Below, one piece after another: positions 57,736-64,000 of a stretch of 64,000 nt of DNA. Source of the stretch: Vezdaea acicularis (Eukaryota); NCBI GenBank assembly GCA_026025075.1, contig JAPEUI010000020.1:62001-126000 (forward strand), read 5' to 3'. Position 1 is the first letter of the stretch, and the number at the start of each line of letters is the position of its first letter. Both the position numbers and the translations under genes were made by a program. Under the pieces are notes generated by a model. That model did no database searches and was not told the DNA's origin. It worked only from the letters and a program-made list of their open reading frames with translations.

Positions 57736-59960
57736 ATGAGCAGCGTCCGCGTGGTGGCGCGCATTCGCCCTTTACTCAGGACCGAGCTCCGTAAGGACGT
57801 CATCATCGAAGCAGCTCAGAACAGCAGAGATTCCCTCGGGAACCCGACGATAGTCCGAATCCCGAATCCAAAGAATGCCGGAGAAGAATTCAGTTTCCAA
57901 TTCAACAGTGTCTATGATCAGGAGGCTACGCAGGATGCTATCTTTCAGGCAGAAAGTGAGAACACCGCTCTGAACCTGCAATTATAATTACTAATCAGTG
58001 ATATTCTATATAGTCACACCAACCATCAAGCACCTTTTCCAGGGTTTTGACGTCACTCTATTTGCGTACGGAGTGACAGGGACTGGTAAAACATGGACAA
58101 TGAAGGGGGGAAAGAGCCTGGCCGAAAGGGGAGTGATTCCGAGATTACTTAGTGGTGTATATAGGCGGGGAAGAAAATTAGAAAAAGATTCTCAGGGCGA
58201 AACGACTGTCGAGGTGTCTCTGAGCTATTATGAAATCTACAATGTCCGTTCTCCCGCTATCCTTGAACGAGGTTTGTCCTAACCCGCCACAGGATCGGGT
58301 CTTCGATCTGTTTGAAGCACCAGAGAAGCGGACTGCTACGGGACTCCCATTAAGAGAAGCAGGTGGAAAGACACATGTAGTGGGACTGGTTGAACGGGCT
58401 TGTACGACACTGAAAGAGTTCGAGCAGTTATATGACGAAGCGAATTTAAACCGATCCACATCCGCTACAAAACTCAACGCACATTCTTCTCGGTCGCATG
58501 CGATTCTTTGCGTCAAACTCTCTATTACAACAGGCGACGAAGTCAAGATAAGCACAGCCTCTGCAATTGATCTGGCAGGCTCGGAAGACAACAGACGTAC
58601 CGAGAATGGCAAAGAACGGCTTGTGGAGTCTGCGAGCATTAACAAGAGTCTCTTCGTGCTGTCACAATGCGTGGAAGCTATCAGCAAGAAACAGAATCGG
58701 ATACCATATCGCGAGTCCAAGATGACCCGAATCCTTGGCTTGGGCCAAAACCAAGGCATTACAGTCATGATCCTGAACTTGGCCCCTGTGAGATCCTACC
58801 ATCTGGATACCTTGAGCTCTTTAAATTTTGCGAACAGAACCAAAAAAATCGAAACAAAAGAGATTGAAAACGAACCAATCTTCAAGGGGCCAGCCAAAGC
58901 GATAGCATCCATCACAGGCTCATCGATCCAGCGACAGCCACTTCGACCACTGGCGAGCAACACTAGTCTGACACGGCGGAACTCACCCGCATCCAAGAAA
59001 GGCACAGAGCGGCCTACAAAAGAGTTTTCCGTCTTCTCAGATAGGCCCTATACTAGTAACCAATTCTCAATGGCCAGCCAAGCCAAACGCGACTCCAGCG
59101 CCGTAAAACGCCCCTTAGAAACCCTCACCACAACCCGCCCTGCTAAGCTCCTCCGGCCAAGCGGCCACCTCCGTCCGGTCCGAAACGATGCACCCTCCCT
59201 TACGAAAGCCACAGTAGAAGAACTCGTCGAACGAAAGGTGGAAGCTATCCTCGCAGCTCGCGCCCTCGACGGCCCCGCCAAAGCACCCGAACGCATCAGT
59301 GAAGAAGTACAGCGGCGCCTGGACCAGCTAGAGCAGCGAATCGAGGACAAAGAGGACGGCCGGTCCGAAGGGCTGAACTACTTGCTTATGGCGAAACAAC
59401 ATCTCGTCAGAGGTGAAGACGCGTCCGCGCTGCGCATGTACCAACTCGCCACGTCCTTCTTTCCAGATAACGAGAAACTGGCGCACAAGGTTGCGGCGCT
59501 ACAGGAGAAGCTTAGGGCAAGGAAACGAGAGGAAGAGCCGCCTATGCCGGTGTTGCACGAAAAGGTGATGAACGGGCAGCGCAGGAGTCGTGCGCGCGCT
59601 GATGACAGCAATTATGAGTCTCAAGAGCAGAGCGCCAGCAGCGAATACGAAGAGGAGGAGACTGTCCGTTCAAGACCCAAGCCACACAAAGTCGCAAAAC
59701 TCCAACGACCCTTCTCAGCAGACGCTCCCGCGGGCGAGCAAACGCCGCGCACACAGCACCTCCTCCAGATCATCAACTCGCGTGACATCTCACGCATCAA
59801 ACTCCTCCGCGGCATCGGGGCCAAGAAAGCAGAGACTATCATCGAGTCCCTCGGTCTGGTGGACGAGGACGACCTCATCGAGGATCTGGCGCAGCTCGGC
59901 AGGCTGAAGGGCGTTGGTGCTAAGACGGTGCAGAATATGCGGTCTAGCTTGGTGCATTGA
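57736..59960 (+). CDS. Kinesin with C-terminal helix-hairpin-helix DNA-binding motifs (kinesin-10/Kid-like; 2 introns)
   Basis: VRVVARIRP, P-loop GVTGTGKT, switch I NAHSSRSH, switch II DLAGSE, IPYRESK, and C-terminal LRGIGAKKA and LKGVGAKT HhH pair. Confidence 0.88.
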
Positions 59961-60008
59961 AGGGCAGGGATCTGTGTAGGCTTCGCATTGATGGCGCTTG
60001 GGGTGCGT

Positions 60009-60039
60009 GTGGGCATTTTGTGGGCATTTTGTGGGCATT
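60009..60039. repeat. Short tandem repeat, 11-nt unit GTGGGCATTTT, about 2.8 copies
   Basis: Read directly, just downstream of the kinesin stop codon. Confidence 0.9.
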
Positions 60040-60335
60040 GGGTGGCGTGGCATCAGGGCTTGCGGTTCGTGCTTTTGGGATCGTCTGCAGATGCGTATAT
60101 ATCAGTGAGATAGACTGATTTGTCTGGAACCGGCTGAATCCCTGGAGACCATGCACGAACGGTGGCATGTTTTCGTGAACAGCGTGTCCATTATTCACAC
60201 GGCGGAAAGGAGTTATGGAGCCATCGCGTTCTTGGGGACAACAGAGGAAAGGAGAAGCGGGGTGTCTGGATGTTCCACACCGTGGGTACAATGGACGTCG
60301 TCCTCGATATTCTGAACGACTGCGGACTATCATGC

Positions 60336-60691
60336 ATGAGGATCGTAACACTATGGCTTGTGTCCTACGTAGTCATTGAAGTAGTAGCCATTGAGCCTGC
60401 ACCATTCAACAATCGCACGCGTGCCCCCCAACCACCAAGTATCGACTACTACACGGCTTTGAATTCCAGTACGAAGTCTATTACATATACTCAAGAGGGG
60501 TTTCACATTTGCCGCACTTCCACCCGAACAACAGTCCTCCGCCCATTTCACTCATGAGTAGACCTGCCCGCATAAGGGTGAATCTCTATCAGCCTGGCCG
60601 GCAAGCTCGTCTAGTGGAAGCGGAGGAGGTGGGATGGGTATCCCACGGACTTGTCGGGCTGGGGTCGAGAACGCGGTTCTTGACTAACTGA
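60336..60691 (+). pseudogene. Probable decayed copy (A) of the tandem small secreted protein family
   Basis: Signal-like MRIVTLWLVSYVVIEVVA...PFNN, a degenerate donor GCACGC (60415) one base out of phase, and acceptor CAG|TAC GAA GTC (YEV, 60470). HFHP follows, then GKLV* in a shifted frame (compare GQLVY in copy D). The conserved cysteines are lost. Confidence 0.5.
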
Positions 60692-61143: not shown

Positions 61144-61495
61144 CAAGGGAATTGAAATTCAAAGAGGAAGGATAACGATCCTCCGCCATGTTAGATGAAA
61201 ACGAGATATCAGATCGACCACCAATTGGCACCCCAAACGCGTGAGCAAAAGCGGCAATTAGCATTTTCGGTACCTGATAAACGTTCGCGCAGATGACGCG
61301 CCTTGTGGAAAATGATAGACGTAAGGGAAAAGCCGAGACAGGGCCGAAGGGGTAGATCATCAAACATATTCGCGCAAGGAGACTACCGAAACACCAACGC
61401 AGTCTGACGAGATGACGGGCATAGGAAGAGACATAAATGCACGAATCTTGTCTCTGCTTGTCACTTGGAGTCTTAGACTATGATCACTGCGCAGA

Positions 61496-61939
61496 ATGAA
61501 GCTACCGCTTTGGTGGGTTTGGACGTTCGTGGCGCTCGCCGTGGCTCCAGCCACTACTCGACTCAACATTGTGCGTGGATACCTCATGACTGGCCCAGGA
61601 TTCTGGGGCGTTGACTGATACAGATCATTGTAGTATGAAGTCGTGTGCGTATCCATCATTGAGCGAACACGGGGGCAAACCTTTTTTCCAGCCCGCACCT
61701 GGCTCTTAAGGTGTTCCCACCGCGGCACCCTCTTCCGAGAAGGATGGCCACAACTCCCTCTGGCTCAACCCTATGCTACACGTTATAGCGACGTGGCGTG
61801 TCGGTGTGTGGTCAGGGACCTGTGGAATCCACGTGACGGCGAAGATCTGCCGACGCATCGGCGGAGATCGAGGGATTGGATGGTCAATAACTTGGCGCCC
61901 TGGAACATTCGGATGAATCCCTTTGGCTCTGGGGATTGA
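61496..61939 (+). CDS. Small predicted-secreted cysteine-pattern protein, copy B (126 aa; exons 61496-61570 and 61634-61939)
   Basis: Exon 1 MKLPLWWVWTFVALAVAPATTRLNI; intron GTGCGT...ACTGAT...TAG; exon 2 YEVVC...CSHRG...CRCVVRDLWNP...RDWMV. Homologous to copies C and D. Confidence 0.85.
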
Positions 61940-62453
61940 CAGTCGTAAGCTGGCGTTGCACATGCTGAGTCATGGCTTAAGGGTTTTGAAGATAGGCTCA
62001 ACCTCGGGCTCAGAATCCGAGTCTAAGTGTTTAGATGTAGTTCGCCTACTGCCAAGGATTTGGGTTTGGGTGTCTTCAGATACGGATCAGCGATGGCATG
62101 TATTTCTAGCCTTGTATTGGATCCGCATCATTAAAGCTTCCTACCGTCGTAATGGACACGTCTTTCAATCGAGTGAGTTTTTTTCAAAGCGCCCGAAGCC
62201 TCGGATGTAAAGTACATCTGCAATCGATCATCTCACATGAAAATCGGTGTCGCCGGGTCAGGGGTAGTTAGTTTCACTTCTACTTCAGAATGACGCATGC
62301 TAGATCTAGGCCGGTTCTGGCCGACATTCGTGAGTCTGCATGTGTGACGCAGCGGGCAAACACTGTCCCAAGCATTTAATTGCGCAAATGATCATGTTAC
62401 TACATATACATACGTGTGAGGGTCCAGAAAGGAGGGGGATGGGGACGTGAGGG

Positions 62454-62459
62454 TATAAA
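62454..62459 (+). promoter_or_regulatory. TATA box of copy C
   Basis: TATAAA 69 nt before the ATG. Similar elements lie 62-64 nt before copies B and D. Confidence 0.55.
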
Positions 62460-62522
62460 TCGGGCGATGGGCCGACACCGACTATTCTTCACCTTCTCCA
62501 AGAAGGAGAAAGCTGTGCATGC

Positions 62523-62955
62523 ATGATGAAGCTATTCATCTGGCTCTATACTTTCGTCGTAGTTGGGGTAGCGGCACCAGGCAGGATGAATTTGGTATGT
62601 ACGGCATCCTGCGACAGGAAATTGCCGCAGAGTGGACTGATATCTGACGGCTTCCCAGTACGAGGTTGAGTGCGAAATTCTCTTGGAGGACCGCAGGGTT
62701 AGTCTATACCCAGAGTTCCTATTTGGCGAGTTGGACTGCTCGGAGCAAGGTCATATAGTATTCGATCGACACTCAACTTTCCACACTTCCTACGTAGCAC
62801 CAGCGCGTGGCAATACAATCACGTGCCGTTGCAAGGGCAAGGACTTCTGGAATCCAAGGCCTAGACACAGGGGTAAAGACGAAGATACCACGGCGTACCG
62901 TCGAAGGTTCAGAGAGTGGATGATCACCGAACTGATTCCCAAGGATGGCGGTTAG
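62523..62955 (+). CDS. Small predicted-secreted cysteine-pattern protein, copy C (122 aa; exons 62523-62594 and 62659-62955)
   Basis: Exon 1 MMKLFIWLYTFVVVGVAAPGRMNL; intron GTATGT...CTGAC...CAG; exon 2 YEVEC...CSEQG...CRCKGKDFWNP...REWMI. Confidence 0.87.
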
Positions 62956-63151
62956 GCGTAATTCTGGTCCATTCTCGAAAGAGCTGAAAGCTAGCATGGG
63001 GATGCATTGTGATCTTCCCCCAAATAATAGCGCAAAGAATCGTGAAGGAGCGGAAGGATGAGGTGACAAAACCCGGGTTCGCGGAGGGATATATATGTAC
63101 GATACCTACGACTCTGTTCATATTGCTTTTTCCAAGTGCTGCAAGTACGTC

Positions 63152-63568
63152 ATGAAGGCTCTTCCATGGCTGGCCATGATTGTCGCCACTGCCGCAGCTC
63201 TGCCTTTCAATCTTGTATGCCAAGCTCTCTTTAAGGTCGAGGTATCGACCTGATGCTCTATCGACTGACATGTGAGAATCACGCAGTACGAACCGCAATG
63301 TGAGCACCTCTCAGGACGACTCGGCGGCATCCGCTTTCATCCATCTGCCGTTGCGGAAATCGAATGCACGTATGAAGGGCAGCTCGTATACAGGAATCGC
63401 GAGCTGCGTCGCCAGTGTACAATAATTCACAGTCGAATGGGCCATTTGATATGCCGGTGTCTTGGGAGAGATATCTGGGACCCGCCAAATGAGCGAAGTC
63501 AAGACTGGATTGTTAGTAAATTGGCCATCACCCACGCTCGACACAGGTCCATGGGCGTTGGAGGATGA
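63152..63568 (+). CDS. Small predicted-secreted cysteine-pattern protein, copy D (114 aa; exons 63152-63214 and 63287-63568)
   Basis: Exon 1 MKALPWLAMIVATAAALPFNL; intron GTATGC...ACTGAC...CAG; exon 2 YEPQC...CTYEG...CRCLGRDIWDP...QDWIV. Confidence 0.87.
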
Positions 63569-64000
63569 AGAGATATGAGATCCAGAAAAGCTGGAACATT
63601 TGGGAGGGTGCTTCGCGGGGCCACCAATCCTCTGTAATAATAGCAGCTGATGTTTAGAGAAGCCTTGCAGGCTGAGGTCGAATGCAAATCAAGGTTACGT
63701 GAAGAGATTTAGTGGGCAACCGCAAAACCGCATAGAAAGCGAGCTTTCAGGAACCCTTAATCGATACAAGAAAAGTGCATGATCACGTGGAAGCTCGTGA
63801 TTTTTCCAGCTGAGCGCTCCCGTGCGTGCCGCAGCGGCCCCCCCTGGCGGCGGCGCAAAGGGAAGGTAGTCGCACTGTAAAAAGTCATAAGTCACGTGGT
63901 AGCAAGGAAAAAGCACGTGGGGTTGAGATTTTCGTGTTGCGGTAGTCACGGTCAAGATGAGGGCATTTTGATCTTGGATCGCAAGCCCCCTCGCCAGGGA

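What the first reader, a model, noticed from the sequence alone, without database searches (positions are those of the whole stretch)
61496..63568. Tandem array of an unrecognised family of small secreted cysteine-scaffold proteins (candidate effector or toxin cluster)
Seen in sequence: three same-strand two-exon genes that the ORF track shows only as headless fragments. Each has a 21-25 aa exon 1 resembling a signal peptide (MK, hydrophobic core, small residues, ending N-[IL]). Each has a 63-72 nt phase-0 intron at the same position and an exon 2 starting YE. Cysteine spacing is identical in all three by hand count: YExxC-x21-C[ST]xxG-x24-CRC-x3-D-[LFI]-W-[ND]-P, later followed by [RQ][DE]W[MI][VI]xxL. 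An Arg six residues before CRC is also invariant. Residues between these anchors are mostly different. Established: clustered, small, secreted, Cys-patterned and divergent paralogues are typical of fungal effector and antimicrobial families. The pattern is not the 8-Cys hydrophobin or CFEM pattern, nor LysM, nor the powdery-mildew Y/F/WxC motif. Inference: a lineage-specific family with a fixed, possibly two-disulfide scaffold and a diversifying surface, perhaps acting in host, symbiont or microbe interactions.
Basis: partly seen in the sequence, partly recalled or inferred. Interest (0 to 1): 0.88.

Follow-up and report, generated by a model that had tools for sequence, protein, structure and literature searches.

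The report
Orphan secreted fungal protein gene cluster
A fungus carries three neighbouring genes, plus two more elsewhere and one probable decayed copy, for small exported proteins of an undescribed sequence family; the genes look real, but such orphan families are common in fungi and their job here is unproven.

Summary
B (61496-61939, 126 aa), C (62523-62955, 122 aa) and D (63152-63568, 114 aa) each have a signal-peptide-like exon, a 63-72 nt phase-0 GT-AG intron with a branch site, and an exon 2 with Cys at 5, 27, 56 and 58. Third codon positions are at chance identity (0.23-0.30) while positions 1-2 are 0.39-0.55, so these are old paralogues under protein-level constraint. New here: two dispersed members (contigs C34, C2) with the same intron and C-x28-CRC spacing, and a probable decayed fourth unit A (60336-60691) without cysteines. 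Corrections: D has a fifth Cys; the 'invariant' Arg is Gly in the dispersed members; net charge ranges from +5 to -5. No outside relative was found in Pfam, 5.8 billion or 1.84 billion proteins, the ESM Atlas or metagenome contigs, but these searches have limited reach. AlphaFold models are weak (pLDDT 53, 60; strands then a helix) and match no known fold. Best reading: a lineage-restricted, disulfide-stapled, effector-like binding protein family evolving by birth and death. Splicing, secretion, host, target and toxicity are untested. The family is new, but its class is ordinary.

The parts
57736..59960 (+). Context: kinesin motor gene with C-terminal helix-hairpin-helix (start approximate); upstream border of the array
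   Evidence: Pfam Kinesin E 7.5e-44, HHH_5 4.5e-05; ORFs
60336..60413 (+). Unit A, exon-1-like: signal-peptide-like 26 codons (starts MR, hydrophobic, ends P-F-N-N). No GT donor at the position where B-D have one. Reads on without a stop to 60557 (73 aa)
   Evidence: the only architecture hit in the window besides B, C, D
60470..60691 (+). Unit A, exon-2-like: follows a CAG, starts YEV, has FHP at 17-19 like D, open for 73 codons, no cysteine; probable decayed fourth copy
   Evidence: no significant similarity to the family (best 15 of 500 shuffles reach the score; hhalign 0.4%)
61432..61437 (+). TATA-like hexamer 64 nt before B's ATG (no chance control run)
61496..61570 (+). Gene B exon 1: signal-peptide-like, 25 aa
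61571..61633 (+). Gene B intron, 63 nt, phase 0, GTGCGT..CTGAT..TAG
61634..61939 (+). Gene B exon 2: 101 aa, Cys 5/27/56/58, pI 9.6
62454..62459 (+). TATAAA 69 nt before C's first ATG (no chance control run)
62523..62594 (+). Gene C exon 1: signal-peptide-like, 24 aa (23 from the second ATG)
62595..62658 (+). Gene C intron, 64 nt, phase 0, GTATGT..CTGAC..CAG
62659..62955 (+). Gene C exon 2: 98 aa, Cys 5/27/56/58, pI 6.5
63090..63095 (+). TATATA 62 nt before D's ATG (no chance control run)
63152..63214 (+). Gene D exon 1: signal-peptide-like, 21 aa
63215..63286 (+). Gene D intron, 72 nt, phase 0, GTATGC..CTGAC..CAG
63287..63568 (+). Gene D exon 2: 93 aa, Cys 5/27/44/56/58, pI 8.8

Best explanation
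B, C and D are old tandem duplicates in a lineage-restricted family of small secreted non-enzymatic proteins, with at least five intact members in this ~19 Mb fungal assembly. SHOWN in sequence: shared two-exon layout, four conserved cysteines (C-x21/26-C-x28-CRC), a conserved W-containing segment near the C-terminus, protein-level constraint. INFERRED from general knowledge of fungal secreted proteins: exon 1 directs the protein into the ER and is cleaved after about residue 15-17; the two cysteines of the CRC strand each pair with one upstream cysteine, stapling a small beta-rich core that resists extracellular proteases; the hydrophobic C-terminal helix packs on that core. PROPOSED mechanism: the stable core displays variable loops and tails that bind an extracellular partner (a protein or wall glycan of a host, symbiont or competing microbe), as sequence-unrelated effector families do. 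Copies are gained by duplication and lost by decay; unit A is probably such a loss.
For: Gene models intact with canonical splice signals in 5 of 5 members. Codon-position identity 0.39-0.55 at positions 1-2 against 0.23-0.30 at position 3 among B, C, D. Cys2-to-CRC distance is 28 in 5 of 5. Both AlphaFold models give strands followed by one C-terminal helix, with Cys5 and CRC on strands. No enzyme or other Pfam domain in 5 of 5 exon-2 proteins at a meaningful score. Dispersed members E and F and unit A fit birth-and-death evolution. Precedent: IGYP family, with low identity, shared gene structure and a motif spanning the first intron (PMC4367982, passages); orphan effector families with a stable core and variable surface (10.1101/2023.01.06.522876, abstract and section 5).
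Against: No expression, secretion or binding evidence. No SignalP or EffectorP was available; the signal peptides rest on hydropathy and by-eye rules. The organism and its lifestyle are unknown (3 AA9 matches; GH7 search inconclusive). The models are low confidence (pLDDT 53 and 60) and disulfide pairing was not visible. The genes sit among housekeeping genes with no RIP signature and no large repeat inside the array, unlike many pathogen effector clusters (recalled). The family is small. Composition of the variable positions fits relaxed constraint.
Confidence: 0.55

Rival explanations
1. They are antimicrobial or killer-toxin-like proteins that act directly on competing microbes.
For: Small, disulfide-type, secreted. 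B is cationic (+5, pI 9.6) and D mildly so. KP4- and KP6-like fungal proteins inhibit fungal growth (PMC12382754, title and passages). Predicted antimicrobial protein families turn over fast between fungal lineages (10.64898/2026.09.03.749242, abstract).
Against: C, E and F are neutral to acidic (pI 6.5, 5.9, 5.7). No gamma-core or CxxxC pattern in 5 of 5 (definitions recalled). The C-terminal helix is not amphipathic in B, C, D (moment 0.04-0.06; 96-99% of shuffles score as high). The models have one helix, whereas KP4 and KP6 have two.
Confidence: 0.15
2. They serve the fungus itself: cell-surface, developmental, adhesion or self-recognition proteins with no foreign target.
For: Housekeeping neighbourhood, small family, old duplicates, no repeat-rich compartment. 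Orphan secreted proteins occur across lifestyles.
Against: No Ser/Thr-rich region, no N-glycosylation sequon in 5 of 5 exon-2 cores, no obvious GPI-type hydrophobic tail by eye, no hydrophobin pattern.
Confidence: 0.15
3. They are highly diverged members of a known effector fold, most plausibly MAX/ToxB-like (beta-sandwich with a Cys in strand 1, sometimes a C-terminal helix). This concerns ancestry and is compatible with the best explanation's function.
For: Cys in the first strand; about six short strands then a helix. ToxB 2mm0 appears at rank 38 of the 50 rows shown, Z 2.4, rmsd 3.0, 48 residues aligned. MAX members can carry a beta2-beta6 disulfide or a C-terminal helix (PMC11132498, passages).
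Against: Z 2.4 is below what unrelated folds typically reach (tool note: 7-8) and below 37 other rows, most of them FHA domains. No conserved Cys lies in a loop before the penultimate strand, where the hallmark MAX bond needs one. The model of C did not list ToxB among its 2 rows.
Confidence: 0.1
4. The four cysteines bind a metal (Zn or Cu) rather than form disulfides.
For: Four invariant Cys including a CxC. Zinc-finger and metal-binding secreted effectors exist (PMC12018790, passage; 10.64898/2026.06.11.731755, search listing only).
Against: No CxxC knuckle; the Cys are spread over three predicted strands; the secretory pathway is oxidising (general knowledge).
Confidence: 0.04
5. The units are non-functional relics or chance ORFs.
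For: No transcript evidence; ESM recognition values are low (1846, 1520), which the tool says does not show whether a gene is real; unit A looks decayed.
Against: Five intact frames, splice sites and cysteines kept despite saturated third positions.
Confidence: 0.03

Closest known systems
Orphan candidate effectors / small secreted cysteine-containing proteins of Pezizomycotina (10.1101/2023.01.06.522876; abstract and section 5 read)
   Same: Signal-like N-terminus, under 300 aa, no Pfam domain, conserved core with variable surface, no sequence relatives.
   Different: No fold family could be assigned here; lifestyle unknown; the signal was judged by hydropathy, not a predictor. The paper's supplementary family tables were not seen and may hold a matching fold.
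IGY proteins of Marssonina brunnea (PMC4367982; passages read)
   Same: Low-identity family recognised by shared gene structure, a short motif spanning the first intron right after the signal peptide, and conserved cysteines.
   Different: IGYPs have three exons, 187-268 aa, IGY and QMxIP motifs, two core Cys, 107 members and relatives in 25 fungi. This family has two exons, an N/T-x|[YF]E junction, four Cys and five members. An analogy, not kinship.
MAX effectors (ToxB, AVR-Pia type; PMC11132498 and PMC12018790, passages read)
   Same: Small, beta-rich, Cys in strand 1, optional C-terminal helix; ToxB is a weak row in the fold search (Z 2.4).
   Different: The hallmark partner Cys in the beta4-beta5 loop is not evident; this family has an invariant terminal-strand CRC instead. 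The structural score is at noise level.
RALPH / Y/F/WxC powdery-mildew effectors (PMC12018790, passage)
   Same: Aromatic residue near an N-terminal Cys directly after the signal exon.
   Different: Spacing is [YF]ExxC, not [YFW]xC (0 of 5); no Cys at the C-terminus; the model has no early helix under a sheet.
KP4-, KP6- and LARS-like effectors (PMC12018790, PMC12382754; passages)
   Same: Small secreted alpha/beta proteins with disulfides.
   Different: These have two helices tied to the sheet; LARS has six Cys and a WR(F/L/V)(R/K) motif (0 of 5). The models here have a single C-terminal helix with no Cys in it.

Membership tests
Orphan small secreted cysteine-containing protein (candidate effector class) | N-terminal secretion signal | tested here: inconclusive
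   Hydrophobic core (9-residue KD mean 2.3-3.6) and small residues before an xP start in 5 of 5; no SignalP available
Orphan small secreted cysteine-containing protein (candidate effector class) | Under 300 aa with conserved cysteines | tested here: met
   114-126 aa (B-D), 136 aa (E), 225 aa (F); four invariant Cys
Orphan small secreted cysteine-containing protein (candidate effector class) | No Pfam domain | tested here: met
   0 families for B, C, D, E exon 2; F has only a sub-threshold CLASP_N row, E 0.058
Effector (functional sense) | Expressed during, and acting on, a host or microbe interaction | not testable with these tools
   No RNA run was listed; organism and host unknown
MAX effectors | Six-stranded beta-sandwich, beta6-1-2 / beta3-4-5 | tested here: inconclusive
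   Model pLDDT 60; ToxB Z 2.4, rmsd 3.0, 48 aligned
MAX effectors | Disulfide from beta1 to the beta4-beta5 loop | tested here: inconclusive
   Cys5 is in strand 1, but the other conserved Cys fall on strands (27, 56, 58) in a weak model; pairing not visible
RALPH / Y/F/WxC | [YFW]xC motif near the mature N-terminus | tested here: not met
   0 of 5 in the first 30 residues of exon 2; exon 1 has no Cys after the signal core; motif definition recalled
RALPH / Y/F/WxC | RNase T1-like fold with N- to C-terminal disulfide | tested here: inconclusive
   Not among fold-search rows; models weak
Hydrophobin | Eight Cys with two CC pairs (recalled) | tested here: not met
   4-5 Cys in B-E, no CC in the core of 5 of 5; no Pfam hit
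CFEM / LysM | Pfam domain match; eight-Cys pattern for CFEM (recalled) | tested here: not met
CS-alpha-beta defensin / gamma-core antimicrobial peptides | CxxxC plus CxC, or GxC-x3-9-C gamma-core (recalled) | tested here: not met
   0 of 5 for CxxxC and for three gamma-core patterns
LARS effectors | Six conserved Cys and WR(F/L/V)(R/K) motif | tested here: not met
   Four conserved Cys; motif 0 of 5
KP4-like / KP6-like | Two helices disulfide-linked to a central sheet | tested here: inconclusive
   One helix, without Cys, in both weak models; definitions

The most novel reading that the evidence does not exclude
The family has a fold not yet described among fungal secreted proteins: a small beta-rich core stapled by a terminal-strand CRC to two upstream strands and capped by one hydrophobic helix. 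In addition, the array shows a new secreted peptide being born from a dying paralogue: unit A keeps its signal exon but has no donor at the family position, so it reads through as an uninterrupted 73-aa frame (60336-60557) unrelated to the family scaffold.
Probability: 0.12. Interest if true: 0.6.

Novelty: new member of a known kind. Interest (0 to 1): 0.3.

Why it matters
These genes are invisible to ORF-based annotation (the one database record found, P0001, is a headless piece of member F), so the family adds to the hidden secretome of a compact-genome fungus. It gives a small, clean birth-and-death series: three tandem copies, two dispersed copies, one probable decayed copy. If a solved structure showed a new fold, or a target were found, it would extend the short list of fungal effector scaffolds. 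As it stands it is one more orphan family of a kind found by the hundred per fungal genome, with no function, host or fold established.

Tried and rejected
Homologue searches without an outside relative: 5.8-billion-protein collection with the 3-sequence profile (29 candidates, 0 at E<=1), with the 5-sequence profile (376 candidates, 1 hit, P0001, identical over 183 of 183 residues to member F) and among longer proteins (7,999 scored, 0); 1.84 billion representatives with the 3-sequence profile (0 at E<=0.001). That last search also did not return P0001 or a representative of it, so its reach may not even cover true paralogues. ESM Atlas: one row at 0.76 for C and none for B. PDB sequences: 4 rows, phospholipase C-gamma at E 0.65-0.74, a chance CRC match. 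Metagenome contigs: 26 pattern stretches, 0 confirmed; 9 of 9 hits to a long DNA pattern were judged chance on translation. Fold searches: C model, 2 rows at Z 2.1; D model, best Z 3.8 (FHA domains), Foldseek PDB and viral 0 at E<=0.001; no match shows neither difference nor novelty. No RNA holder was listed. Own-genome patterns: 6, 30 and 19 matches gave only the five members; the rest were chance by profile and translation. A Cys-rich secreted protein on C283 is not a relative (hhalign 1%). A hit to unit A on C131 (E 0.029) is chance. An amphipathic C-terminal helix was rejected for B-D. RIP was rejected (TpA/ApT 0.55-0.85). Placing the organism with Nop56 against the PDB was uninformative. 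Four answered look-ups of earlier scan findings returned nothing. Six paper searches were for context and did not surface this family; they cannot show that it is absent from print. Cluster membership and naming of P0001 stay unknown.

Full report
SETTING. The window is G000:C113:62001-126000 of an 18.9 Mb, 315-contig assembly. Short introns, AA9 genes (3 matches) and the gene set point to a filamentous fungus, probably an ascomycete; that placement is my inference, and a Nop56 comparison did not settle it. Lifestyle is unknown. The array lies between a kinesin gene ending at 59960 and, about 2.9 kb past D, a gene that looks like a secreted glucanase (L004:4416-5567; family name recalled). GC is ordinary, there is no RIP signature, and no large repeat lies inside the array.

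OBSERVATION. B is 126 aa (intron 61571-61633), C 122 aa (62595-62658), D 114 aa (63215-63286). All introns are phase 0 and have a CTRAY branch site. Exon 2 has Cys at 5, 27, 56 and 58 in 3 of 3, and codons 1-66 align without gaps at 17-18 of 66 identities. Pairwise scores are z 14.7-21.0 against 500 shuffles each. TATA-like hexamers lie 62-69 nt before the ATG in 3 of 3, but not within 150 nt in E or F (no chance control). Two corrections: D has an extra Cys at 44, and the Arg at -6 from CRC is not family-wide.

THEY ARE OLD, CONSTRAINED PARALOGUES. Nucleotide identity among B, C and D is 0.39-0.55 at codon position 1, 0.47-0.53 at position 2 and 0.23-0.30 at position 3, and 10-11 of the 17-18 identical residues use different codons. 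At DNA level only a 35-nt stretch around CRC aligns between B and C. So selection has acted on the protein over a long time. Because synonymous sites are saturated, positive selection cannot be tested. The Arg-rich, Lys-poor composition (11.3%, 2.2%) equals random codons at this GC (11.0%, 3.1%) and differs from eight housekeeping ORFs (6.1%, 6.8%). The variable positions may simply be drifting.

THE FAMILY IS LARGER THAN THE ARRAY. Searching the genome with B found member E (C34:5439-5777, minus; E 0.006), and E found member F (C2:52317 onward; E 2e-14). Both have a 23-aa hydrophobic exon 1, a 68-nt phase-0 GTGAGT intron, and an exon 2 starting [FY]E[VI]EC. Their first Cys gap is 26 rather than 21; the gap from Cys2 to CRC is 28 in 5 of 5. 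Four Cys, the Glu at 2, a Gly four after Cys2, the Arg of CRC and the late Trp are invariant. F has an extension of about 100 residues with five more Cys. Five protein searches with members and three pattern searches (6, 30 and 19 matches, checked) found no sixth intact member; five is a lower bound.

UNIT A. A scan for 'M[KR] hydrophobic exon, then an acceptor followed by [YF]E' finds 4 sites in the 64 kb window: B, C, D and one at 60336, same strand, 1.16 kb before B. Shuffled windows give 5 hits in 300, and the scan also recovers E and F in the held stretches. I designed the scan after noticing A, so this rate flatters it. A keeps a family-like exon 1, a YEV start, FHP at 17-19 as in D, and late N-L-Y and W-V segments. 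It has no Cys, no GT donor at the family position and no CTRAY, and its similarity is not significant (best case 15 of 500 shuffles; hhalign 0.4%). I read it as a probable decayed copy (about 65%). Its read-through frame is open for 73 codons (chance about 0.13 for the 47 added codons) and its exon-2 frame for 73 codons (about 0.04), so a live, altered gene is not excluded.

NO OUTSIDE RELATIVES FOUND. Pfam gave nothing meaningful. The 5.8-billion collection returned only P0001, identical to F residues 20-202 of exon 2. The 1.84-billion search with the B-C-D profile returned 0; it did not return P0001 either, so it may not reach even true paralogues. The ESM Atlas, PDB sequences and metagenome contigs were blank. 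These collections under-represent intron-containing fungal genes (my inference), so 'lineage-restricted' means no detectable relative, not proven absence.

STRUCTURE. AlphaFold on C (3 sequences) gave pLDDT 53; on D (5 sequences) 60, with four of the first six 10-residue blocks at 70-74. Both show five longer strands (about 2-8, 24-27, 33-36, 44-48, 53-60) and one C-terminal helix carrying the Trp. Cys5, Cys27 and CRC lie on strands. A CxC on a strand points both side chains to one face, which suits two parallel disulfides to Cys5 and Cys27 (inference; pairing not visible). The helix is hydrophobic but not amphipathic in B-D, so core packing is likelier than membrane attack. Fold searches gave best Z 2.1 (C) and 3.8 (D, FHA sandwiches), ToxB at Z 2.4, and no Foldseek match. 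All are at noise level.

HOW IT MOST LIKELY WORKS. Secretion, cleavage of the exon-1 signal, two disulfides, a stable beta-rich core, and variable loops and tails that bind an extracellular partner, as effector-like proteins do (0.55). Rivals: direct antimicrobial (0.15; charge runs from +5 to -5, no gamma-core), a role on the fungus's own surface or in development (0.15), a diverged MAX-like scaffold (0.10, compatible in function), metal binding (0.04), relics (0.03). Only the gene anatomy and constraint are shown; all later steps are inferred.

COMPARISON WITH THE KNOWN. It works like the orphan candidate effectors of Pezizomycotina, of which one survey selected 4,987 from 20 genomes, most falling into 62 fold families (10.1101/2023.01.06.522876, abstract and section 5; its supplements were not seen and may hold a matching family). 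A family held together by gene structure and a junction-spanning motif has precedent in the IGYPs (PMC4367982, passages). Sequence-level tests fail for hydrophobin, CFEM, LysM, Y/F/WxC, LARS and defensin patterns. Fold-level tests for MAX, RALPH, KP4 and KP6 are inconclusive (definitions from passages of PMC12018790, PMC11132498, PMC12382754).

VERDICT. A real, previously unannotated sequence family of a familiar kind: new member of a known kind, interest 0.3. The boldest reading not excluded is a new fold plus a new secreted peptide arising from unit A (probability 0.12, interest 0.6).

Noticed in passing
window 63828-64000, continuing to about L004:2111 (G000:C113:~126110): A non-coding element of about 230-280 bp, 260 bp after gene D, with CACGTG-containing sub-repeats. 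Nine further matches on eight other contigs at 74-86% identity. No Rfam or tRNA match in 5 loci; not found in the held stretches around E or F. Perhaps a non-autonomous mobile element or a shared regulatory module.
   Followed up: partly
L052:1048-1725 minus strand (G000:C283, about 181982-182659): Single-frame 225-aa protein with a signal-like N-terminus and an eight-Cys pattern (C, CxxxCxC, C, CxxxCxC). No Pfam hit above threshold, single copy, unrelated to this family by profile.
   Followed up: partly
L014:1801-2106 (G000:C2, member F): F carries an extension of about 100 residues with five extra Cys, absent from the other members; the same sequence is in P0001, seen on 2 contigs in the protein collection.
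   Followed up: partly
window 60008-60045: Three copies of an 11-nt unit just after the kinesin stop.
   Followed up: no
L087:753-1263 (G000:C82, near the contig start): Tandemly repeated Arg/Lys-rich reading frames beside an AT-rich stretch (GC 0.22) and next to copies of the dispersed element; possibly a repeat or mobile-element remnant.
   Followed up: no
window 63416-63418 (gene D, exon-2 residue 44): An extra, unpaired Cys in D could allow a covalent dimer or a bond to a partner; untested.
   Followed up: no
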